Assembly (NCBI RefSeq): GCF_016026235.1
Contig: NZ_CP065613.1
DNA length: 64,000 bases
Reading direction: 5' to 3' (one strand)
From: Escherichia coli
GTDB lineage: Bacteria; Pseudomonadota; Gammaproteobacteria; Enterobacterales; Enterobacteriaceae
A program made the translations under genes and the position numbers. Below are positions 4 to 39,666 of this stretch, one piece after another; position 1 is the first letter of the stretch; each line of letters begins with the position of its first letter. Under the pieces are notes generated by a model that was not told the origin of the DNA, ran no database searches, and was given only the letters and a program-made list of their open reading frames with translations.

Positions 4-879
4 GTGATTTTCTTTGGCTTTGGCAATGGCGGGCAGTCGATTGGTTTTAGCAATCTCACAGAGCATGGCGGTTTCTTTGCGGGTGGCTGGAAAGGGTTCC
101 TGACCGCGCTGTGTATTGTGGTGGCGTCCTACCAGGGCGTGGAGCTGATTGGCATTACTGCCGGTGAAGCGAAGAATCCGCAGGTGACGCTGCGCAGTGC
201 CGTAGGCAAAGTGCTGTGGCGGATCCTGATTTTCTACGTAGGCGCGATTTTCGTTATCGTCACCATCTTCCCGTGGAATGAAATTGGCAGCAACGGCAGC
301 CCGTTCGTACTGACTTTTGCCAAAATCGGTATTACCGCAGCGGCGGGCATTATCAACTTTGTGGTGCTGACGGCTGCGCTCTCTGGCTGTAACAGCGGCA
401 TGTACAGTTGCGGACGTATGCTCTACGCACTGGCGAAAAACCGTCAGTTACCGGCGGCGATGGCGAAAGTTTCCCGTCACGGCGTACCAGTTGCGGGTGT
501 GGCAGTATCTATTGCTATTCTGCTAATTGGCTCATGCCTGAACTACATCATTCCCAATCCGCAGCGTGTGTTTGTCTACGTCTACAGTGCCAGCGTGCTT
601 CCGGGGATGGTGCCATGGTTTGTGATATTGATAAGCCAGCTGCGTTTTCGGCGTGCACATAAAGCGGCGATTGCCAGCCATCCGTTCCGCTCAATCCTGT
701 TCCCGTGGGCCAACTACGTAACAATGGCATTCCTGATTTGCGTTTTGATCGGCATGTACTTTAATGAAGATACGCGTATGTCGCTGTTTGTTGGCATCAT
801 CTTTATGCTGGCGGTGACGGCGATTTATAAAGTTTTTGGCCTTAATCGCCACGGGAAAGCGCATAAACTGGAGGAATAA
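4..879 (+). CDS. yifK: APC-family amino acid permease, 3' portion (gene starts upstream of window)
   Basis: ORF runs off the 5' edge; 291 aa polytopic membrane product typical of amino-acid permeases; sits immediately upstream of the argX-hisR-leuT-proM tRNA cluster as yifK does in E. coli. Confidence 0.85.
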
Positions 880-931
880 GCAGCAAAACGCACAAACCGT
901 AACCAAACGCGCAATTTATTTAAAAAGGGAC

Positions 932-960
932 TAGACAGAGGGGTGGGAAGTCCGTATTAT
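932..960 (+). promoter_or_regulatory. Candidate sigma70 promoter of the tRNA operon (TAGACA-17 bp-TATTAT)
   Basis: -35-like TAGACA at 932-937 and -10-like TATTAT at 955-960 with 17 bp spacing, about 20 bp upstream of tRNA-Arg. Confidence 0.4.
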
Positions 961-981
961 CCACCCCCGCAACGGCGCTAA

Positions 982-1058
<77 letters not shown>

Positions 1059-1115
1059 TTTAGTCCCGGCGCTTGAGCTGCGGTGGTAGTAATACCGCGT
1101 AACAAGATTTGTAGT

Positions 1116-1192
1116 GGTGGCTATAGCTCAGTTGGTAGAGCCCTGGATTGTGATTCCAGTTGTCGTGGGTTCGAATCCCATTAGCCACCCCA
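1116..1192 (+). tRNA. hisR: tRNA-His (anticodon GUG)
   Basis: GGUGGCUAUAGCUCAGUUGGUAGAGC...GGUUCGAAUCC...CCACCCCA with the extra 5' G typical of tRNA-His; anticodon loop UUGUGAU. Confidence 0.93.
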
Positions 1193-1212
1193 TTATTAGA
1201 AGTTGTGACAAT

Positions 1213-1299
1213 GCGAAGGTGGCGGAATTGGTAGACGCGCTAGCTTCAGGTGTTAGTGTCCTTACGGACGTGGGGGTTCAAGTCCCCCCCCTCGCACCA
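1213..1299 (+). tRNA. leuT: tRNA-Leu (anticodon CAG), long variable arm
   Basis: 87 nt class II tRNA GCGAAGGUGGCGGAAUUGGUAGACGCG...; anticodon loop CUUCAGGUG; GGUUCAAGUCC T-arm. Confidence 0.92.
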
Positions 1300-1341
1300 C
1301 GACTTTAAAGAATTGAACTAAAAATTCAAAAAGCAGTATTT

Positions 1342-1418
1342 CGGCGAGTAGCGCAGCTTGGTAGCGCAACTGGTTTGGGACCAGTGGGTCGGAGGTTCGA
1401 ATCCTCTCTCGCCGACCA
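1342..1418 (+). tRNA. proM: tRNA-Pro (anticodon UGG)
   Basis: CGGCGAGUAGCGCAGCUUGGUAGCGCA...UUUGGGA anticodon loop...GGUUCGAAUCC...GCCGACCA. Confidence 0.92.
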
Positions 1419-1424
1419 ATTTTG

Positions 1425-1452
1425 AACCCCGCTTCGGCGGGGTTTTTTGTTT
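1425..1452 (+). terminator. Rho-independent terminator of the tRNA operon
   Basis: GC-rich hairpin AACCCCGC-TTCG-GCGGGGTT followed by TTTTGTTTTC. Confidence 0.8.
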
Positions 1453-1564
1453 TCTGTGCATTTCGTCACCCTCCCTTCGCAATAAACGCCCGTAATAACT
1501 CATTGCCCCACGGTATGATTTCGCCCTTAACGTATTGAAGGATGACTTCAGGCAAGGAGTGACC

Positions 1565-2800
1565 ATGCTGCAACAGGTTCCAACGCGTGCTTTTCATGTG
1601 ATGGCGAAACCGAGTGGTTCCGATTGTAATCTGAACTGTGACTACTGTTTTTATCTCGAAAAACAATCCCTTTACCGCGAAAAGCCAGTCACGCATATGG
1701 ACGATGACACGCTGGAAGCGTATGTCCGTCACTATATCGCTGCCAGCGAACCGCAAAACGAAGTGGCTTTTACCTGGCAGGGCGGCGAACCAACGTTACT
1801 CGGGCTGGATTTTTACCGCCGTGCCGTAAAGTTACAGGCGAAATACGGTGCTGGCAGGAAGATAAGTAACAGCTTCCAGACTAACGGCGTGCTGCTCGAT
1901 GATAAATGGTGTGCATTTCTGGCAGAAAATCATTTTCTTGTTGGGTTATCGCTGGACGGTCCGGCTGAGATCCACAATCAATATCGCGTGACCAAAGGTG
2001 GCAGACCAACGCATAAGCTGGTGATGCGTGCCCTGACGCTGCTGCAAAAACATCATGTCGACTATAACGTGCTGGTCTGCGTCAACCGCACCAGCGCGCA
2101 GCAACCGTTGCAGGTTTATGATTTTTTGTGCGATGCGGGAGTCGAATTCATCCAGTTTATTCCGGTGGTCGAGCGCCTGGCTGATGAAACAGCTGCCAGC
2201 GATGGACTGAAACTACATGCGCCTGGTGATATTCAGGGGGAACTGACGGAATGGTCGGTGCGCCCCGATGAATTTGGTGAATTTCTGGTGGCGATATTCG
2301 ACCACTGGATCAAACGCGACGTCGGCAAGATTTTCGTGATGAATATCGAATGGGCGTTTGCCAATTTTGTCGGTGCGCCGGGTGCGGTTTGCCATCATCA
2401 GCCAACCTGTGGGCGCTCGGTGATTGTTGAGCACAACGGCGACGTTTACGCCTGCGATCACTATGTTTATCCGCAATATCGGCTGGGGAATATGCATCAG
2501 CAAACAATTGCAGAAATGATCGATTCCCCGCAACAGCAGGTGTTTGGTGAAGATAAATTTAAGCAATTACCGGCGCAGTGTCGCAGTTGTAACGTGTTAA
2601 AAGCGTGCTGGGGAGGCTGCCCGAAACACCGCTTCATGCTCGATGCCAGCGGCAAACCGGGGCTGAATTATTTGTGTGCCGGGTATCAGCGTTATTTCCG
2701 CCATCTACCGCCATATCTTAAAGCAATGGCTGATTTGCTGGCGCACGGTCGCCCGGCCAGTGACATTATGCAGGCACATTTGCTGGTGGTGAATAAGTAA
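1565..2800 (+). CDS. aslB: Anaerobic sulfatase-maturating enzyme, radical SAM (411 aa from ATG 1565; ORF track extends to 1535)
   Basis: N-terminal CxxxCxxC radical-SAM motif (CNLNCDYC) and C-terminal Cys-rich auxiliary cluster region; length and position after the tRNA operon match aslB. Confidence 0.9.
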   Translation: MLQQVPTRAFHVMAKPSGSDCNLNCDYCFYLEKQSLYREKPVTHMDDDTLEAYVRHYIAASEPQNEVAFTWQGGEPTLLGLDFYRRAVKLQAKYGAGRKISNSFQTNGVLLDDKWCAFLAENHFLVGLSLDGPAEIHNQYRVTKGGRPTHKLVMRALTLLQKHHVDYNVLVCVNRTSAQQPLQVYDFLCDAGVEFIQFIPVVERLADETAASDGLKLHAPGDIQGELTEWSVRPDEFGEFLVAIFDHWIKRDVGKIFVMNIEWAFANFVGAPGAVCHHQPTCGRSVIVEHNGDVYACDHYVYPQYRLGNMHQQTIAEMIDSPQQQVFGEDKFKQLPAQCRSCNVLKACWGGCPKHRFMLDASGKPGLNYLCAGYQRYFRHLPPYLKAMADLLAHGRPASDIMQAHLLVVNK

Positions 2801-2835
2801 AAAAGCGGCCATTTTGTGGCCGCCTGCGGTTGATT

Positions 2836-2870
<35 letters not shown>

Positions 2871-2883
2871 TGATCGTGCAAAT

Positions 2884-3045
2884 TCAATAAATTGCAGCGT
2901 TCTGTGGATACTGGTTTGGGTGATCGTATCCGGCAAAGCCTTTGCGTGCGGTGGCAGTTGACGGGGTATCTGCTGCGCTGGCCATGAGAGGAAGAGCGGC
3001 GGCGACAGCAACAACAAGAAGTTTGGGTGAAAACGAAAATTCCAT
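2884..3045 (-). pseudogene. aslA: 5' stub of a periplasmic protein gene, probably arylsulfatase aslA; rest of gene absent
   Basis: Minus-strand ATG at 3045 encodes [28 protein letters not shown]..., a classic Sec signal peptide with AXA site, then stops after 53 codons; this is where aslA is expected (convergent with aslB, before glmZ/hemY) but only ~160 bp remain. Confidence 0.45.
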
Positions 3046-11871: not shown

Positions 11872-12696
11872 ATGCAGTTCTCGAAAATGCATGGCCTTGG
11901 CAACGATTTTATGGTCGTCGACGCGGTAACGCAGAATGTCTTTTTTTCACCGGAGCTGATTCGTCGCCTGGCTGATCGGCACCTGGGGGTAGGGTTTGAC
12001 CAACTGCTGGTGGTTGAGCCGCCGTATGATCCTGAACTGGATTTTCACTATCGCATTTTCAATGCTGATGGCAGTGAAGTGGCGCAGTGCGGCAACGGTG
12101 CGCGCTGCTTTGCCCGTTTTGTTCGTCTGAAAGGACTGACCAATAAGCGTGATATCCGCGTCAGCACCGCCAACGGGCGGATGGTTCTGACCGTCACCGA
12201 TGATGATCTGGTCCGCGTAAATATGGGCGAACCCAACTTCGAACCTTCCGCCGTGCCGTTTCGCGCTAACAAAGCGGAAAAGACCTATATTATGCGCGCC
12301 GCCGAGCAGACAATCTTATGCGGCGTGGTGTCGATGGGAAATCCGCATTGCGTGATTCAGGTCGATGATGTCGATACCGCGGCGGTAGAAACGCTTGGTC
12401 CTGTTCTGGAAAGCCACGAGCGTTTTCCGGAGCGCGCCAATATCGGTTTTATGCAAGTGGTTAAGCGCGAGCATATTCGTTTACGCGTTTATGAGCGTGG
12501 GGCAGGAGAAACCCAGGCCTGCGGCAGCGGCGCGTGTGCGGCGGTTGCAGTAGGGATTCAGCAAGGTTTGCTGGCCGAAGAAGTACGCGTGGAACTCCCC
12601 GGCGGTCGTCTTGATATCGCCTGGAAAGGTCCGGGTCACCCGTTATATATGACTGGCCCGGCGGTACATGTCTACGACGGATTTATTCATCTATGA
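11872..12696 (+). CDS. dapF: Diaminopimelate epimerase
   Basis: 274 aa, [19 protein letters not shown]..., catalytic Cys motifs (GNGARC, SGACA). Confidence 0.95.
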
Positions 12697-13400
12697 AGCA
12701 ACCAGGGGAAGAACTGCAGGAAACACTCACGGAGCTTGATGACCGGGCGGTTGTCGATTATCTGATTAAAAATCCTGAGTTTTTTATCCGTAATGCGCGC
12801 GCAGTAGAAGCGATACGTGTGCCGCATCCGGTACGCGGCACCGTTTCGTTGGTCGAGTGGCACATGGCCCGCGCACGTAATCATATTCATGTTCTGGAAG
12901 AGAACATGGCGCTGTTGATGGAACAGGCTATCGCCAACGAAGGCCTGTTTTATCGCCTACTCTACCTGCAGCGCAGTCTCACCGCCGCCAGCAGTCTCGA
13001 CGATATGCTGATGCGCTTTCACCGCTGGGCGCGCGATCTCGGCCTGGCAGGTGCGAGTCTGCGCCTGTTTCCGGATCGCTGGCGCTTAGGTGCGCCGTCG
13101 AACCACACTCATCTGGCATTAAGCCGTCAGTCTTTCGAACCGCTGCGTATTCAGCGTTTGGGGCAGGAACAGCACTATCTTGGACCGCTTAACGGACCTG
13201 AGCTGCTGGTGGTGCTACCTGAAGCGAAAGCAGTGGGATCGGTGGCGATGTCGATGCTGGGAAGCGATGCTGATTTGGGTGTCGTGCTGTTTACCAGTCG
13301 CGATGCCAGTCACTATCAACAAGGGCAAGGAACGCAGTTACTTCATGAAATTGCGCTGATGTTGCCGGAGCTTCTGGAGCGTTGGATTGAACGCGTATGA
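12693..13400 (+). CDS. yigA: DUF484-family protein
   Basis: 235 aa ORF, 4 bp overlap with dapF and xerC; dapF-yigA-xerC-yigB operon layout. Confidence 0.85.
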
Positions 13401-14293
13401 CCGATTTACACACCGATGTAGAACGCTACCTACGTTATCTGAGCGTGGAGCGCCAGCTTAGCCCGATAACCCTGCTTAACTACCAGCGTCAGCTTGAGGC
13501 GATCATCAATTTTGCCAGCGAAAACGGCCTGCAAAGCTGGCAGCAATGTGATGTGACGATGGTGCGCAATTTTGCTGTACGCAGTCGCCGTAAAGGGCTG
13601 GGAGCAGCAAGCCTCGCGTTACGGCTTTCTGCGCTACGTAGCTTTTTTGACTGGCTGGTCAGCCAGAACGAACTCAAAGCTAACCCGGCGAAAGGTGTTT
13701 CGGCACCGAAAGCGCCGCGTCATCTGCCGAAAAATATCGACGTCGACGATATGAATCGGCTGCTGGACATTGATATCAACGATCCCCTCGCTGTACGCGA
13801 CCGTGCAATGCTGGAAGTGATGTACGGCGCGGGTCTGCGTCTTTCCGAGCTGGTGGGGCTGGATATCAAACACCTCGACCTGGAGTCTGGTGAAGTGTGG
13901 GTAATGGGGAAAGGCAGCAAAGAGCGCCGCCTGCCGATTGGTCGCAACGCTGTGGCGTGGATTGAGCACTGGCTTGATTTGCGCGACCTGTTTGGTAGCG
14001 AAGACGACGCGCTTTTTCTGTCGAAACTGGGCAAGCGTATCTCCGCGCGTAATGTGCAGAAACGCTTTGCCGAATGGGGCATAAAACAAGGGCTGAATAA
14101 TCACGTTCATCCGCATAAATTACGTCACTCGTTCGCCACGCATATGCTGGAGTCGAGCGGCGATCTTCGTGGTGTGCAGGAGCTGCTGGGTCATGCCAAC
14201 CTCTCCACCACGCAAATCTATACTCATCTTGATTTTCAACACCTTGCCTCGGTGTACGATGCGGCGCATCCACGCGCCAAACGGGGGAAATAA
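13397..14293 (+). CDS. xerC: Tyrosine site-specific recombinase XerC
   Basis: 298 aa; C-terminal R..HxxR..Y catalytic signature ([10 protein letters not shown]...[14 protein letters not shown]). Confidence 0.95.
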
Positions 14294-15009
14294 TGCGTTT
14301 TTACCGGCCTTTGGGGCGCATCTCGGCGCTCACCTTTGACCTGGATGATACCCTTTACGATAACCGTCCGGTGATTTTGCGCACCGAGCGAGAGGCGCTT
14401 ACCTTTGTGCAAAATTATCATCCGGCGCTGCGCAGCTTCCAGAATGAAGATCTGCAACGCCTGCGCCAGGCGGTACGGGAAGCGGAACCCGAGATTTATC
14501 ACGACGTGACGCGTTGGCGTTTTCGTTCGATTGAACAAGCGATGCTCGACGCCGGGCTGAGTGCCGAAGAAGCCAGTGCAGGCGCACACGCAGCAATGAT
14601 TAACTTTGCCAAATGGCGCAGCCGAATCGACGTCCCGCAGCAAACTCACGACACCTTAAAACAGCTGGCGAAGAAATGGCCGCTGGTGGCGATCACCAAC
14701 GGTAACGCCCAGCCGGAACTGTTTGGTTTGGGGGATTATTTTGAGTTTGTGCTGCGCGCTGGCCCGCACGGGCGCTCAAAACCGTTCAGCGATATGTACT
14801 TTTTGGCTGCGGAAAAACTCAACGTGCCGATCGGCGAGATCTTACATGTTGGGGACGATCTCACCACTGACGTGGGTGGGGCAATTCGCAGCGGAATGCA
14901 GGCTTGTTGGATCAGACCGGAAAATGGCGATCTGATGCAAACCTGGGACAGCCGTTTACTGCCGCATCTGGAAATTTCCCGGTTGGCATCTCTGACCTCG
15001 CTGATATAA
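14293..15009 (+). CDS. yigB: HAD-superfamily phosphatase
   Basis: 238 aa; N-terminal DxD motif (FDLDDTLYD). Confidence 0.88.
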
Positions 15010-15018
15010 TCAGCAAAT

Positions 15019-15034
15019 CTGTATATATACCCAG
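15019..15034. promoter_or_regulatory. LexA (SOS) box upstream of uvrD
   Basis: CTGTATATATACCCAG, a CTG-N10-CAG palindrome-like site 60 bp upstream of the uvrD ATG. Confidence 0.6.
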
Positions 15035-15092
15035 CTTTTTGGCGGAGGGCGTTGCGCTTCTCCGCCCAACCTATTTTTACGCGGCGGTGCCA

Positions 15093-17255
15093 ATGGACGT
15101 TTCTTACCTGCTCGACAGCCTTAATGACAAACAGCGCGAAGCGGTGGCCGCGCCACGCAGCAACCTTCTGGTGCTGGCGGGCGCGGGCAGTGGTAAGACG
15201 CGCGTACTGGTGCATCGTATCGCCTGGCTGATGAGCGTGGAAAACTGCTCGCCATACTCGATTATGGCTGTGACGTTTACCAACAAAGCGGCGGCGGAGA
15301 TGCGTCATCGTATCGGGCAACTGATGGGCACCAGCCAGGGCGGCATGTGGGTCGGCACCTTCCACGGGCTGGCGCACCGTTTGCTGCGTGCGCACCATAT
15401 GGACGCCAATCTACCGCAGGATTTCCAGATCCTCGACAGTGAAGACCAGCTACGCCTGCTTAAGCGTCTGATCAAAGCCATGAACCTCGACGAGAAGCAG
15501 TGGCCGCCGCGCCAGGCAATGTGGTACATCAACAGCCAGAAAGATGAAGGCCTGCGTCCGCATCATATTCAAAGCTACGGTAATCCGGTGGAGCAGACCT
15601 GGCAGAAGGTGTATCAGGCGTATCAGGAAGCGTGTGACCGCGCGGGCCTGGTGGACTTCGCCGAGCTGCTGCTGCGCGCTCACGAACTGTGGCTTAACAA
15701 GCCGCATATCCTACAACACTACCGCGAACGTTTTACCAATATCCTGGTGGACGAATTCCAGGATACCAACAACATTCAGTACGCGTGGATCCGCCTGCTG
15801 GCGGGCGACACCGGCAAAGTGATGATCGTCGGTGATGACGACCAGTCAATCTACGGCTGGCGTGGGGCGCAGGTGGAGAATATTCAGCGTTTCCTTAATG
15901 ATTTCCCCGGTGCCGAAACTATTCGTCTGGAGCAAAACTACCGCTCTACCAGCAATATTCTGAGCGCCGCTAACGCCCTGATTGAAAACAACAACGGGCG
16001 TCTGGGTAAAAAACTGTGGACCGATGGCGCGGACGGTGAGCCTATTTCCCTCTATTGCGCTTTTAACGAACTCGATGAAGCGCGTTTTGTGGTTAACCGC
16101 ATCAAAACCTGGCAGGACAACGGCGGGGCGCTTGCCGAGTGCGCCATTCTCTACCGCAGTAACGCCCAGTCGCGTGTGCTGGAAGAAGCACTGTTGCAGG
16201 CGAGTATGCCGTACCGTATTTACGGCGGGATGCGCTTCTTCGAACGCCAGGAAATCAAAGATGCGCTCTCGTATCTGCGCCTGATTGCCAACCGTAACGA
16301 CGACGCGGCCTTTGAGCGTGTGGTGAATACGCCAACGCGGGGTATTGGTGACCGGACGCTGGACGTGGTACGTCAGACATCGCGCGATCGCCAGTTAACA
16401 CTCTGGCAGGCATGTCGTGAACTGTTGCAGGAAAAAGCCCTCGCCGGACGTGCTGCCAGCGCCTTACAGCGGTTTATGGAACTGATCGACGCCTTAGCGC
16501 AGGAAACTGCCGATATGCCGCTGCATGTACAGACTGACCGGGTAATTAAAGACTCCGGCCTGCGTACCATGTACGAGCAGGAGAAGGGCGAAAAAGGTCA
16601 GACGCGTATCGAAAACTTAGAGGAACTGGTGACGGCAACGCGCCAGTTCAGCTACAACGAAGAAGACGAAGATTTAATGCCGCTGCAGGCGTTCCTATCC
16701 CATGCGGCGCTGGAAGCAGGCGAAGGGCAGGCGGATACCTGGCAGGATGCGGTACAACTGATGACCATGCACTCGGCGAAAGGTCTGGAGTTCCCGCAGG
16801 TGTTTATCGTCGGTATGGAAGAGGGCATGTTCCCAAGCCAGATGTCGCTGGATGAAGGCGGGCGTCTGGAAGAAGAACGCCGTCTGGCCTACGTTGGCGT
16901 AACCCGCGCGATGCAGAAACTGACGCTGACCTACGCGGAAACTCGCCGTCTGTATGGCAAAGAGGTTTACCATCGCCCGTCGCGCTTTATTGGCGAGCTG
17001 CCGGAAGAGTGTGTGGAAGAGGTGCGCCTGCGCGCCACGGTAAGCCGCCCGGTCAGCCATCAGCGGATGGGTACGCCGATGGTCGAGAACGACAGCGGCT
17101 ACAAGCTCGGCCAGCGTGTACGCCACGCTAAGTTTGGTGAAGGCACCATCGTCAATATGGAAGTCAGCGGTGAACATAGCCGTTTGCAGGTGGCATTCCA
17201 GGGCCAGGGAATCAAATGGCTGGTGGCAGCTTACGCCCGGCTGGAGTCGGTGTAA
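15093..17255 (+). CDS. uvrD: DNA helicase II (720 aa from ATG 15093; ORF track over-extends upstream to 14904)
   Basis: MDVSYLLDSLNDKQREAVAAP...; Walker A GAGSGKT; UvrD/Rep helicase motifs. Confidence 0.95.
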   Translation: MDVSYLLDSLNDKQREAVAAPRSNLLVLAGAGSGKTRVLVHRIAWLMSVENCSPYSIMAVTFTNKAAAEMRHRIGQLMGTSQGGMWVGTFHGLAHRLLRAHHMDANLPQDFQILDSEDQLRLLKRLIKAMNLDEKQWPPRQAMWYINSQKDEGLRPHHIQSYGNPVEQTWQKVYQAYQEACDRAGLVDFAELLLRAHELWLNKPHILQHYRERFTNILVDEFQDTNNIQYAWIRLLAGDTGKVMIVGDDDQSIYGWRGAQVENIQRFLNDFPGAETIRLEQNYRSTSNILSAANALIENNNGRLGKKLWTDGADGEPISLYCAFNELDEARFVVNRIKTWQDNGGALAECAILYRSNAQSRVLEEALLQASMPYRIYGGMRFFERQEIKDALSYLRLIANRNDDAAFERVVNTPTRGIGDRTLDVVRQTSRDRQLTLWQACRELLQEKALAGRAASALQRFMELIDALAQETADMPLHVQTDRVIKDSGLRTMYEQEKGEKGQTRIENLEELVTATRQFSYNEEDEDLMPLQAFLSHAALEAGEGQADTWQDAVQLMTMHSAKGLEFPQVFIVGMEEGMFPSQMSLDEGGRLEEERRLAYVGVTRAMQKLTLTYAETRRLYGKEVYHRPSRFIGELPEECVEEVRLRATVSRPVSHQRMGTPMVENDSGYKLGQRVRHAKFGEGTIVNMEVSGEHSRLQVAFQGQGIKWLVAAYARLESV

Positions 17256-17330
17256 CGTTGCCGGATGCGGTGCTGCGCACCTTATTTGGCCTAAAAAATC
17301 ATTCATATTCAATAAATTGCAACGTCATGT

Positions 17331-17364
17331 ATGCCGGATAGGGCGTTTACGCCGCATCCGGCAT
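17331..17364. repeat. REP element
   Basis: ATGCCGGATAGGGCGTTTACGCCGCATCCGGCAT palindromic unit downstream of uvrD. Confidence 0.7.
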
Positions 17365-17401
17365 CTGCGCCATCTTCAGTATCTGACACAAAACTATCGT
17401 T

Positions 17402-17833
17402 TTAACCTTTCCGCTCGACGGAAATCATGGTGACAAAAGGATAGCGTTGCCACGGGATTGCCCCGCCTTTCATATACATATGTGAAATCGTACCATCAAG
17501 ATAAAGCAGCTGCTCAACGTTCAGTTTCGCTTTGGCATAACAGGCAAAATCATAAAAATTTGTCGCCTGCTGGCTCAACAAAAACACGGCATTCCCATGT
17601 TTATTAATCCCAACACCGTTACGAATTTTACGTGAGGCGACGTTGGGATGAATACGCGGATTAATTACACCGTTTTCCATCAACATTGGCCCTGACTGCA
17701 CCGCAAACTGAATATCTTTACTGGCTTTAAAAGCATCTAGACGAACGATGCCGACTTTATCTCCCGCGACATAAAACACGCCGCCAGGACGGATAAAGAA
17801 ATTCCCTTCACCTGAAGCGAGATTTAACGCCAC
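17402..17833 (-). pseudogene. yigE: yigE (DUF2233) 3' portion, separated from its 5' portion by IS4
   Basis: 143 aa ORF fragment abutting the IS4 left end; together with 19269-19604 it reconstitutes a ~254 aa protein. Confidence 0.75.
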
Positions 17834-19268
17834 CTTCTGCTGTAATGCCGATCAGTTAAGGATCAGTTGACCGATCCAGTGGCTGTGTAAGAATCCGGAA
17901 ACGCTCACTTGTTTCCGGATTTTTTTATGCACATTGGACAGGCTCTTGATCTGGTATCCCGTTACGATTCTCTGCGTAACCCACTGACTTCTCTGGGGGA
18001 TTACCTCGACCCCGAACTCATCTCTCGTTGCCTTGCCGAATCAGGTACTGTAACGCTACGCAAGCGCCGTCTTCCCCTCGAAATGATGGTCTGGTGTATT
18101 GTTGGCATGGCGCTTGAGCGTAAAGAACCTCTTCACCAGATTGTGAATCGCCTGGACATCATGCTGCCGGGCAATCGCCCCTTCGTTGCCCCCAGTGCCG
18201 TTATTCAGGCCCGCCAGCGCCTGGGAAGTGAGGCTGTCCGCCGCGTGTTCACGAAAACAGCGCAGCTCTGGCATAACGCCACGCCGCATCCGCACTGGTG
18301 CGGCCTGACCCTGCTGGCCATCGATGGTGTGTTCTGGCGCACACCGGATACACCAGAGAACGATGCAGCCTTCCCCCGCCAGACACATGCCGGGAACCCG
18401 GCGCTCTACCCGCAGGTCAAAATGGTCTGCCAGATGGAACTGACCAGCCATCTGCTGACGGCTGCAGCCTTCGGCACGATGAAGAACAGCGAAAATGAGC
18501 TTGCTGAGCAACTTATAGAACAAACCGGCGATAACACTCTGACGTTAATGGATAAAGGTTATTACTCACTGGGACTGTTAAATGCCTGGAGCCTGGCGGG
18601 AGAACACCGCCACTGGATGATACCTCTCAGAAAGGGAGCGCAATATGAAGAGCTCAGAAAACTGGGTAAAGGCGATCATCTGGTGAAGCTGAAAACCAGC
18701 CCGCAGGCACGAAAAAAGTGGCCGGGACTGGGAAATGAAGTGACAGCCCGCCTGCTGACCGTGACGCGCAAAGGAAAAGTCTGCCATCTGCTGACGTCGA
18801 TGACGGACGCCATGCGCTTCCCCGGAGGAGAAATGGCGGATCTGTACAGTCATCGCTGGGAAATCGAACTGGGATACAGGGAGATAAAACAGACGATGCA
18901 ACTGAGCAGGCTGACGCTGAGAAGTAAAAAGCCGGAGCTTGTGGAGCAAGAGCTGTGGGGTGTCTTACTGGCTTATAATCTGGTGAGATATCAGATGATT
19001 AAAATGGCGGAACATCTGAAAGGTTACTGGCCGAATCAACTGAGTTTCTCAGAATCATGCGGAATGGTGATGAGAATGCTGATGACATTGCAGGGCGCTT
19101 CACCGGGACGTATACCGGAGCTGATGCGCGATCTTGCAAGTATGGGACAACTTGTGAAATTACCGACGAGAAGGGGAAGGGCCTTCCCGAGAGTGGTAAA
19201 GGAGAGGCCCTGGAAATACCCCACAGCCCCGAAAAAGAGCCAGTCAGTTGCTTAACTGACTGGCATTA
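17834..19268 (+). mobile_element. IS4 insertion sequence with 12 bp target-site duplication CACCTTCTGCTG
   Basis: Terminal inverted repeats TAATGCCGATCAGTTAAG (left) and CTTAACTGACTGGCATTA (right, 16/18 match); identical 12 bp direct repeats at 17822-17833 and 19269-19280. Confidence 0.9.
17927..19255 (+). CDS. insG: IS4 DDE transposase (442 aa from ATG 17927)
   Basis: Product [30 protein letters not shown]... recognised as IS4-family transposase; inside the IR-bounded element. Confidence 0.88.
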
Positions 19269-39526: not shown

Positions 39527-39666
39527 TTCTCTTCTCCTGTCTGAAGGCCGACGCGTTCGGCCTTTTGTATTTTTGCGTAGCGCCTCGCAGGAAATGCCTT
39601 TCCAACTGGACGTTTGTACAGCACAATTCTATTTTGTGCGGGTAAGTTGTTGCGTCAGGAGGCGTT

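What the first reader, a model, noticed from the sequence alone, without database searches (positions are those of the whole stretch)
15010..15092. SOS box in the uvrD promoter region
CTGTATATATACCCAG at 15019-15034 fits the LexA-binding pattern (CTG-N10-CAG, AT-rich centre) and lies between the yigB stop and the uvrD start, consistent with uvrD being SOS-inducible. It is a sanity check that regulatory architecture here is canonical.
Basis: partly seen in the sequence, partly recalled or inferred. Interest (0 to 1): 0.15.

Follow-up and report, generated by a model that had tools for sequence, protein, structure and literature searches.

The report
Known LexA operator of uvrD
This is the long-known LexA repressor binding site (SOS box) just after the promoter of the E. 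coli DNA-repair helicase gene uvrD; it is real, conserved across many related bacteria, and entirely ordinary.

Summary
CTGTATATATACCCAG sits at 15019-15034, between the yigB stop (15007-15009) and the uvrD ATG (15093). The region 14960-15110 is 100% identical to E. coli K-12 MG1655. The published uvrD LexA box (AAATCTGTATATATACCCAGCTTTT) is this exact sequence.

The bare CTG-N10-CAG pattern is not diagnostic: it occurs 33 times in the window. A LexA weight matrix built from 17 other published E. coli boxes is diagnostic. It ranks 15017-15036 first in the window at 15.6 bits, with about 0.1 such hit expected per 64 kb. Among 18 known boxes it ranks 15th, so it is a weak-to-moderate operator (published heterology index 8.5).

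The box lies 8 bp downstream of a near-consensus promoter (TTGGCA-16-TGaTATAAT), covering about +1 to +20. This fits repression by occlusion of RNA polymerase.

The 58-nt promoter plus operator is unchanged in 5410 of 5425 complete E. coli genomes. In 76 of 80 gammaproteobacterial species the best matrix hit upstream of uvrD has TG-N10-CAG geometry, and 63 reach 12 bits or more. None of the flanking controls does.

Downstream lies a GC-rich leader hairpin, the reported attenuator. It is lineage-variable and not a canonical terminator.

Verdict: already known; low interest.

The parts
14293..15009 (+). yigB coding sequence (upstream gene). Its 3' end carries the uvrD promoter.
   Evidence: ORF of 238 aa. 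RefSeq annotates it as yigB in K-12 and other E. coli genomes.
14983..14988 (+). -35 hexamer TTGGCA of the predicted uvrD promoter, lying inside the yigB coding sequence.
   Evidence: Promoter scan: TTGGCA, 16-nt spacer, TATAAT, 11 of 12 matches. It is the only promoter-like site in 14700-15400. TTGG is invariant in 18 Enterobacterales species.
15002..15010 (+). Extended -10 element TGaTATAAT. The hexamer at 15005-15010 contains the yigB stop codon TAA.
   Evidence: TG before the hexamer: yes. TATAAT is invariant in 18 Enterobacterales species. The transcription start is inferred at about 15016-15017 and was not measured here.
15017..15036 (.). LexA operator (SOS box) of uvrD: 20-mer ATCTGTATATATACCCAGCT, core CTG-N10-CAG at 15019-15034.
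   Evidence: Leave-one-out matrix score 15.6 bits, top of the window. HI 7.82. Identical to K-12 and to the published uvrD LexA motif. 11 of 16 core positions are invariant in 18 Enterobacterales species. In 76 of 80 species the best matrix hit upstream of uvrD has TG-N10-CAG geometry.
15041..15066 (+). GC-rich hairpin in the uvrD leader RNA (GGCGGAGGGCG-TTG-CGCTTCTCCGCC), the candidate attenuator.
   Evidence: Present in both the minimum-free-energy and centroid folds. E. albertii keeps the pairing through a G-U change. Hairpins of different sequence occupy this position in many Enterobacterales leaders. A published title reports attenuation (Easton & Kushner 1983, cited); that paper could not be read here.
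15074..15078 (+). T5 run downstream of the leader hairpin.
   Evidence: Read directly from the sequence. It starts 7 nt after the stem, so the terminator scan did not call it.
15085..15092 (+). Conserved CGGTGCCA just before the ATG, inferred to be the ribosome-binding region.
   Evidence: Invariant or nearly invariant columns 111-117 in 18 Enterobacterales species. The function is inferred.
15093..17255 (+). uvrD (DNA helicase II) coding sequence, the regulated gene.
   Evidence: ORF in this frame ending at 17255, with ATG at 15093. RefSeq annotates it as uvrD. 100% identity to the E. coli representative over the first 200 aa.

Best explanation
This is the LexA operator of the uvrD promoter in an E. 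coli chromosome.

A sigma-70 promoter lies at the very end of yigB (-35 TTGGCA at 14983-14988; extended -10 TGaTATAAT at 15002-15010). It should start transcription at about 15016-15017. This start is inferred.

The 20-bp LexA site at 15017-15036 therefore covers roughly +1 to +20. In undamaged cells a LexA dimer bound there overlaps the RNA polymerase footprint and lowers initiation. After DNA damage, RecA-stimulated LexA self-cleavage frees the site and uvrD transcription rises. That mechanism is established knowledge of the SOS system.

The box deviates from consensus in its flanks (AT..CT instead of TA..TA) and in its right half (ACCCAG). It is therefore a weak-to-moderate operator. This fits the high basal expression of uvrD, its modest induction and its 'early' timing.

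The 76-nt leader then carries a GC-rich hairpin (15041-15066) followed by a T run. This was reported as an attenuator that further limits read-through into uvrD.
For: Shown here:
- The exact sequence and its position.
- 100% identity to K-12 over 14960-15110.
- Top leave-one-out matrix hit in 64 kb at 15.6 bits, about 0.1 expected by chance, within the range of 17 other known boxes.
- Lowest heterology index in the window, 7.82.
- A single 11-of-12 promoter immediately upstream.
- The 58-nt promoter plus operator is unchanged in 5410 of 5425 E. coli genomes. 58-nt controls were variant in 2259 genomes (yigB coding) and 329 genomes (uvrD coding).
- In one genome per species, 63 of 80 gammaproteobacterial uvrD upstream regions have a hit of 12 bits or more. 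None of the 80 flanking controls (~3.2 kb per locus) does.
- 76 of 80 best hits keep TG-N10-CAG geometry.
- In 18 Enterobacterales species the -35, the -10 and 11 of 16 box positions are invariant. The leader between the box and the conserved stretch just before the ATG has no invariant column.

From papers:
- The uvrD motif is listed as AAATCTGTATATATACCCAGCTTTT among UV-induced genes (PMC3009722).
- HI 8.5 and about 2-fold induction (PMC11228462).
- A UV-inducible 'early' uvrD promoter (PMC5999292).
- Transcript and protein both rise after damage (PMC11002266).
- Reg-Seq mutagenesis found one repressor site at uvrD whose matrix matched LexA (PMC7567609).
- Orthologues are induced 13.9-fold in Salmonella and 9.1-fold in V. 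cholerae.
Against: - No binding or expression experiment can be run here.
- The transcription start is predicted, not measured, so 'covers +1 to +20' is inferred.
- Reg-Seq's authors note that the curated LexA site at uvrD counted as 'low-evidence'.
- In Salmonella, basal heterogeneity in uvrD expression was independent of LexA, so repression is leaky.
- The attenuator part is weaker. The T run starts 7 nt after the stem, and the terminator scan did not call it.
- The leader is no more stable than dinucleotide shuffles (z = +0.62).
- No Rfam family matches the region.
- No uvrD entry appeared in the supplementary files held as text for a paper that mapped 3' ends in E. coli 5' UTRs.
Confidence: 0.95

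Rival explanations
1. The site is a chance match. CTG-N10-CAG is frequent in E. coli DNA, and this copy merely happens to fall upstream of uvrD.
For: The bare pattern occurs 33 times in the window, more than twice the shuffled expectation. Thirty-five 20-mers in the window have HI below 15 with my matrix.
Against: - The full 20-mer is the best matrix hit in the window, with about 0.1 expected.
- It is identical to the published uvrD site.
- It is almost invariant across 5425 E. coli genomes.
- An equivalent site is present upstream of uvrD in 76 of 80 species and never in the flanking controls.
Confidence: 0.01
2. The conserved AT-rich palindrome matters mainly as promoter DNA rather than as a LexA operator. 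It could act as initially transcribed sequence or as a second, overlapping -10-like element (TATATA or TATAAA).
For: The box centre (TATATATA here, TATAAAT in most relatives) resembles a -10 hexamer. In Vibrionaceae the box lies only 9-20 nt from the ATG, so there it may overlap the core promoter.
Against: - Conservation extends to both outer arms (TG and CAG) at a fixed 10-nt spacing in 76 of 80 species. A -10 element would not require this.
- The promoter scan found no second promoter using the box.
- Reg-Seq classed the element as a repressor site with a LexA-like matrix.
- Damage induction has been observed in three genera.
Confidence: 0.03
3. LexA does bind, but it is a minor controller. 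Most uvrD output is set by the strong constitutive promoter, read-through from dapF-yigA-xerC-yigB, and the leader hairpin. The hairpin may act chiefly as the terminator of the upstream operon rather than as a regulated attenuator.
For: - The operator is weak (15th of 18; HI 8.5).
- Induction in E. coli is only about 2-fold.
- Basal expression in Salmonella is LexA-independent.
- No terminator lies between yigB and the uvrD promoter; the -10 overlaps the yigB stop.
- Hairpins recur at this position in Enterobacterales leaders, though with unrelated sequences.
Against: - Strong purifying selection on the operator within E. coli and across orders argues that the LexA input matters.
- Larger inductions are reported in Salmonella and V. 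cholerae.
- The hairpin is not a canonical intrinsic terminator.
- Vibrionaceae and most other non-enteric relatives have no stable leader hairpin, or no room for one.
Confidence: 0.2

Closest known systems
The E. coli K-12 uvrD LexA box (SOS box) and uvrD promoter
   Same: Identical sequence and position. Window 14960-15110 equals NC_000913.3 3997850-3998000, and the 25-mer equals the published motif.
   Different: Nothing in the regulatory region differs. The host strain is not K-12: it is 98.6% identical over 12000-17842 and has an IS4 inserted in yigE downstream of uvrD.
Other gammaproteobacterial LexA operators (consensus TACTG(TA)5CAGTA), such as recA, lexA, uvrA/ssb, uvrB and rmuC
   Same: A CTG-N10-CAG palindrome with an AT-rich centre, overlapping or abutting a sigma-70 promoter. 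The matrix score lies within the known range. A second example, the rmuC box, lies in the same window at 39604-39623.
   Different: Weaker than most: the flanks are AT/CT instead of TA/TA, and the right half is ACCCAG. It lies downstream of the -10 element, covering the predicted start site, rather than between or over the -35 and -10 elements.
Leader attenuators / intrinsic terminators in 5' UTRs (for example pyrBI, pyrE)
   Same: A GC-rich stem-loop followed by a T run, between the promoter and the start codon.
   Different: - The T run is 7 nt away from the stem.
- No leader peptide or alternative anti-terminator pairing was seen in the predicted folds, and neither was specifically searched for.
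- Stability does not exceed that of shuffles.
- The sequence is not conserved outside Escherichia.

Membership tests
LexA operator (SOS box), gammaproteobacterial type | 16-bp core CTG-N10-CAG with an AT-rich centre, approximating TACTG(TA)5CAGTA. | tested here: met
   CTGTATATATACCCAG at 15019-15034. Consensus as quoted in PMC6590174.
LexA operator (SOS box), gammaproteobacterial type | Matrix score or heterology index within the range of experimentally supported sites, and better than the genomic background. | tested here: met
   15.6 bits leave-one-out; rank 15 of 18 known sites; top of the window; about 0.1 expected per 64 kb. HI 7.82 here and 8.5 published.
LexA operator (SOS box), gammaproteobacterial type | Located at or overlapping the promoter of the regulated gene. 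| tested here: met
   The box starts 8 bp after the -10 hexamer of the only promoter-like site. The transcription start itself is inferred, not measured.
LexA operator (SOS box), gammaproteobacterial type | Conserved at the orthologous position in related genomes. | tested here: met
   5410 of 5425 E. coli genomes are unchanged over the 58-nt promoter plus operator. 63 of 80 species have a hit of 12 bits or more, and 76 of 80 keep TG-N10-CAG geometry. 11 of 16 core positions are invariant in Enterobacterales.
LexA operator (SOS box), gammaproteobacterial type | Physical binding of LexA (footprint, gel shift or ChIP). | not testable with these tools
   Literature only. The title of Easton & Kushner 1983 could be seen but the paper could not be read. 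Reg-Seq found a repressor site with a LexA-like matrix. The Wade 2005 ChIP paper is not held.
LexA operator (SOS box), gammaproteobacterial type | DNA-damage-inducible, LexA-dependent expression of the downstream gene. | not testable with these tools
   Literature only: E. coli, Salmonella, V. cholerae.
Intrinsic terminator / transcription attenuator in the uvrD leader | A stable GC-rich stem-loop in the nascent RNA. | tested here: met
   Hairpin at 15041-15066 in the minimum-free-energy and centroid folds.
Intrinsic terminator / transcription attenuator in the uvrD leader | A U-tract immediately (0-2 nt) after the stem. | tested here: not met
   The T5 run at 15074-15078 begins 7 nt after the stem, and the scan does not call a + strand terminator.
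Intrinsic terminator / transcription attenuator in the uvrD leader | Structure more stable than expected from composition, or supported by covariation. | tested here: inconclusive
   z = +0.62 against dinucleotide shuffles and -1.37 against mononucleotide shuffles. There is one G-U-compatible change in E. albertii. Elsewhere non-homologous hairpins occupy the position, so covariation cannot be counted.
Intrinsic terminator / transcription attenuator in the uvrD leader | Observed premature termination in the leader. | not testable with these tools
   Only the title of Easton & Kushner 1983 is available. No uvrD entry appeared in the held supplements of a 3'-end mapping paper.

The most novel reading that the evidence does not exclude
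The LexA box itself offers nothing novel. The only mildly novel reading left open concerns the leader downstream of it. Enterobacterales repeatedly place non-homologous GC-rich hairpins plus T-rich tails directly after the uvrD SOS box. In some Citrobacter and Kluyvera leaders the right arm of the box could itself pair to form the stem; this was seen by eye and is not in the predicted folds. This might reflect a selected second control layer. It could terminate dapF-xerC-yigB read-through and attenuate uvrD transcripts, possibly coupled to LexA occupancy. The alternative is that the hairpin is an incidental structure.
Probability: 0.12. Interest if true: 0.3.

Novelty: already known. Interest (0 to 1): 0.05.

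Why it matters
It matters only as a control. It shows that the window is ordinary E. coli chromosome with intact, canonical SOS regulation of uvrD. It also shows that a simple leave-one-out LexA matrix recovers both known SOS boxes in the window (uvrD and rmuC) as its top two hits. Nothing here changes what is known about LexA or uvrD.

Tried and rejected
- Bare CTG-N10-CAG counting. Rejected as a test because the pattern occurs 33 times against 14.8 expected. This is probably because CTG and CAG are favoured codons (inference).
- Rfam search of 14800-15300 at E <= 1: no family matched.
- Terminator scan: no + strand terminator in the leader. The only hit is a - strand site inside uvrD.
- Whole-leader folding against shuffles: not exceptional.
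- RefSeq K-12 annotation: no protein-binding feature is recorded, only coding sequences. The 'annotated site' therefore had to be taken from papers.
- Easton & Kushner 1983 (PMC326612) and Wade et al. 2005 (PMID 16264194) are not held.
- The held supplements of a 3'-end mapping paper do not mention uvrD.
- The first related-loci run failed because my frame was off by one: the ATG is at 15093, not 15094.

Full report
**1. Observation**

The sequence CTGTATATATACCCAG is present at 15019-15034 on the + strand. The upstream ORF of 238 aa ends with TAA at 15007-15009. The downstream ORF starts with ATG at 15093 and ends at 17255, giving 720 codons.

RefSeq annotation of matching E. coli genomes names the two genes yigB and uvrD (DNA helicase II). 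Window 14960-15110 is 100% identical to E. coli K-12 MG1655 NC_000913.3 3997850-3998000.

**2. Is it more than chance?**

The bare CTG-N10-CAG pattern is not informative here. It occurs 33 times in the window, against 14.8 +/- 3.4 in dinucleotide-preserving shuffles. I infer, without testing, that CTG and CAG being favoured codons causes this.

I therefore built a symmetric log-odds matrix from 17 E. coli LexA boxes listed in Table 4 of PMC3009722. The uvrD site was left out to avoid circularity.
- Scanning the whole window puts 15017-15036 (ATCTGTATATATACCCAGCT) first, at 15.6 bits.
- In 200 first-order Markov simulations of the window, about 0.1 position per 64 kb scored this well.
- In leave-one-out scoring of all 18 published boxes, uvrD ranks 15th. 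It scores above dinB, dinG and polB and below ftsK, ruvA and lexA.
- A Berg-von Hippel/Lewis-type heterology index from the same sites gives 7.82 with uvrD left out, the lowest value in the window. The published value is 8.5 (Courcelle et al. 2001, as tabulated in PMC11228462).

The second-best matrix hit is 39604-39623, AACTGGACGTTTGTACAGCA, at 14.4 bits. It lies 44 nt upstream of the GTG start of an ORF that matches the RmuC equivalog model end to end. rmuC (yigN) is a listed SOS gene with HI 8.8. The matrix thus recovers both known SOS boxes of this region as its top two hits, which serves as an internal positive control.

**3. Agreement with the known site**

PMC3009722 lists the uvrD motif as AAATCTGTATATATACCCAGCTTTT among motifs found upstream of UV-induced genes. 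That is window 15015-15039 exactly. The RefSeq K-12 record carries no binding-site feature, only coding sequences, so the comparison rests on the literature table and on the 100% identity to K-12.

**4. Anatomy**

The only sigma-70-like site in 14700-15400 is TTGGCA (14983-14988), a 16-nt spacer, then TATAAT (15005-15010), preceded by TG. It matches 11 of 12 positions.
- The -35 lies inside yigB, and the -10 hexamer contains the yigB stop codon.
- By the usual 6-8 nt rule, transcription should start at the A residues at about 15016-15017. This is inferred, not measured.
- The 20-bp operator would then cover about +1 to +20, inside the RNA polymerase footprint.

Downstream, the leader RNA forms a GC-rich hairpin at 15041-15066, present in both the minimum-free-energy and centroid structures. 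It is followed by CAACCTA and a T5 run at 15074-15078.
- This is not a canonical intrinsic terminator. The T run starts 7 nt after the stem, and the scan did not call it.
- The whole leader is no more stable than dinucleotide shuffles (z = +0.62).
- No Rfam family matches the region.
[quoted passage not shown] I could not read the paper itself.

**5. Conservation within E. coli**

The table gives the number of the 5425 matching complete genomes in which each 58-nt segment is not 100% identical.

| Segment (58 nt) | Coordinates | Variant genomes |
|---|---|---|
| Promoter plus operator | 14983-15040 | 15 |
| Leader | 15035-15092 | 54 |
| yigB coding control | 14900-14957 | 2259 |
| uvrD coding control | 15150-15207 | 329 |

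One caveat applies. BLAST trims mismatches at the ends of alignments, so these counts are lower bounds on variation. Only four segments were compared.

**6. Conservation across species**

One scan of the species-representative genome collection, using the first 200 aa of UvrD, returned 80 loci. They come from Enterobacterales, Vibrionales and Alteromonadales, at 71-100% protein identity.
- With the uvrD-free matrix, 63 of 80 have a hit of 12 bits or more within 400 nt upstream of uvrD. None of the 80 has one in the remaining ~3.2 kb of its locus.
- 76 of 80 best hits keep TG-N10-CAG geometry, and 47 have the full CTG-N10-CAG.
- The exceptions are three Shewanella species and Xenorhabdus ehlersii.

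I also aligned 18 Enterobacterales species.
- The -35, the TGnTATAAT element and 11 of the 16 core box positions are invariant.
- The leader between the box and the conserved stretch just before the ATG has no invariant column.
- A short CGGTGCC stretch before the ATG is conserved again.

Many Enterobacterales leaders contain a GC-rich hairpin right after the box, but with unrelated sequences. Reading the alignment by eye, in Citrobacter youngae and Kluyvera the right arm of the box could itself pair with downstream sequence (CCCAG...CTGGG); the predicted folds do not show this pairing. Vibrionaceae have only 9-20 nt between the box and the ATG, and no hairpin. The operator is therefore ancient and constrained. 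The hairpin is lineage-specific.

**7. Function (from papers, not tested here)**

- uvrD is listed among LexA-regulated SOS genes (PMC6590174).
- Induction was about 2-fold after replication inhibition (PMC11228462).
- Its promoter is UV-inducible and belongs to the 'early' class (PMC5999292).
- Transcript and protein both rise over a damage time course (PMC11002266).
- Reg-Seq mutagenesis found one repressor site at uvrD whose matrix matched LexA. The authors note that the curated site counted as 'low-evidence' (PMC7567609).
- The Salmonella orthologue has one box (HI 11.48) and 13.9-fold induction, but its basal heterogeneity is LexA-independent (PMC8072944).
- V. cholerae uvrD is induced 9.1-fold by mitomycin C (PMC5963079).

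**8. Mechanism**

Best explanation (confidence 0.95): a LexA dimer bound at 15017-15036 occludes or blocks RNA polymerase at the uvrD promoter. RecA-stimulated LexA cleavage relieves this. The weak operator and strong promoter give high basal expression and modest, early induction. The leader hairpin may add attenuation.

What is shown here: the sequence, its score, its position relative to a predicted promoter, and its conservation. What is inferred or taken from the literature: the transcription start, LexA binding, induction and attenuation.

Rivals:
- A chance match (0.01).
- A promoter element rather than an operator (0.03).
- A minor LexA role, with the hairpin acting mainly as the terminator of the upstream operon (0.2). 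This one is not exclusive of the main explanation.

**9. Novelty and score**

The site is already known; it has been in the literature since 1983. Interest is 0.05. Its value is as a sanity check and as a positive control for LexA matrix scanning.

Noticed in passing
window 39604-39623: Second-best LexA matrix hit in the window (AACTGGACGTTTGTACAGCA, 14.4 bits). It lies 44 nt upstream of the GTG start (39667) of rmuC/yigN, so it is the known rmuC SOS box.
   Followed up: partly
window 17843-19268: A 1426-bp IS4 copy (IS4-family transposase ORF at 17909-19255) is inserted in yigE, just downstream of uvrD. It is flanked by a 12-bp target duplication (K-12 4000721-4000732 appears on both sides). 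It is absent from K-12 and from strain 90-3040.
   Followed up: partly
window 14983-15010: The uvrD promoter is embedded in the end of yigB. The -35 lies in coding sequence and the -10 hexamer TATAAT contains the yigB stop codon. No terminator separates yigB from uvrD, so read-through from dapF-yigA-xerC-yigB is possible.
   Followed up: no
L046-L075 (Vibrionaceae), about 1460-1490 in each locus: In Vibrio, Photobacterium and Aliivibrio the uvrD box has ATG, TTG or GTG instead of CTG in its left arm (for example ATGTATAAATAACCAG). It lies only 9-20 nt from the start codon. The degenerate left half-site is conserved across the family.
   Followed up: no
L004, L015, L019, leader about 1390-1500: Three Enterobacteriaceae have 109-110-nt uvrD leaders carrying extra GC-rich palindromes that look like REP-type elements inserted after the SOS box.
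   Followed up: no
L038, L060, L078, L080: Xenorhabdus ehlersii and three Shewanella species show no LexA-like site within 400 nt upstream of uvrD. This suggests possible loss of LexA control, or a distant promoter.
   Followed up: no
whole window: The bare CTG-N10-CAG pattern occurs 33 times against 14.8 expected from shuffles. Codon usage probably explains this, and it means the pattern alone should not be used to call SOS boxes.
   Followed up: partly
L002:1477-1484 (E. coli species representative): This E. coli strain has CTCCACC instead of CTCCGCC in the 3' arm of the leader hairpin. The change weakens the predicted stem (-16.1 against -20.7 kcal/mol for the leader).
   Followed up: no
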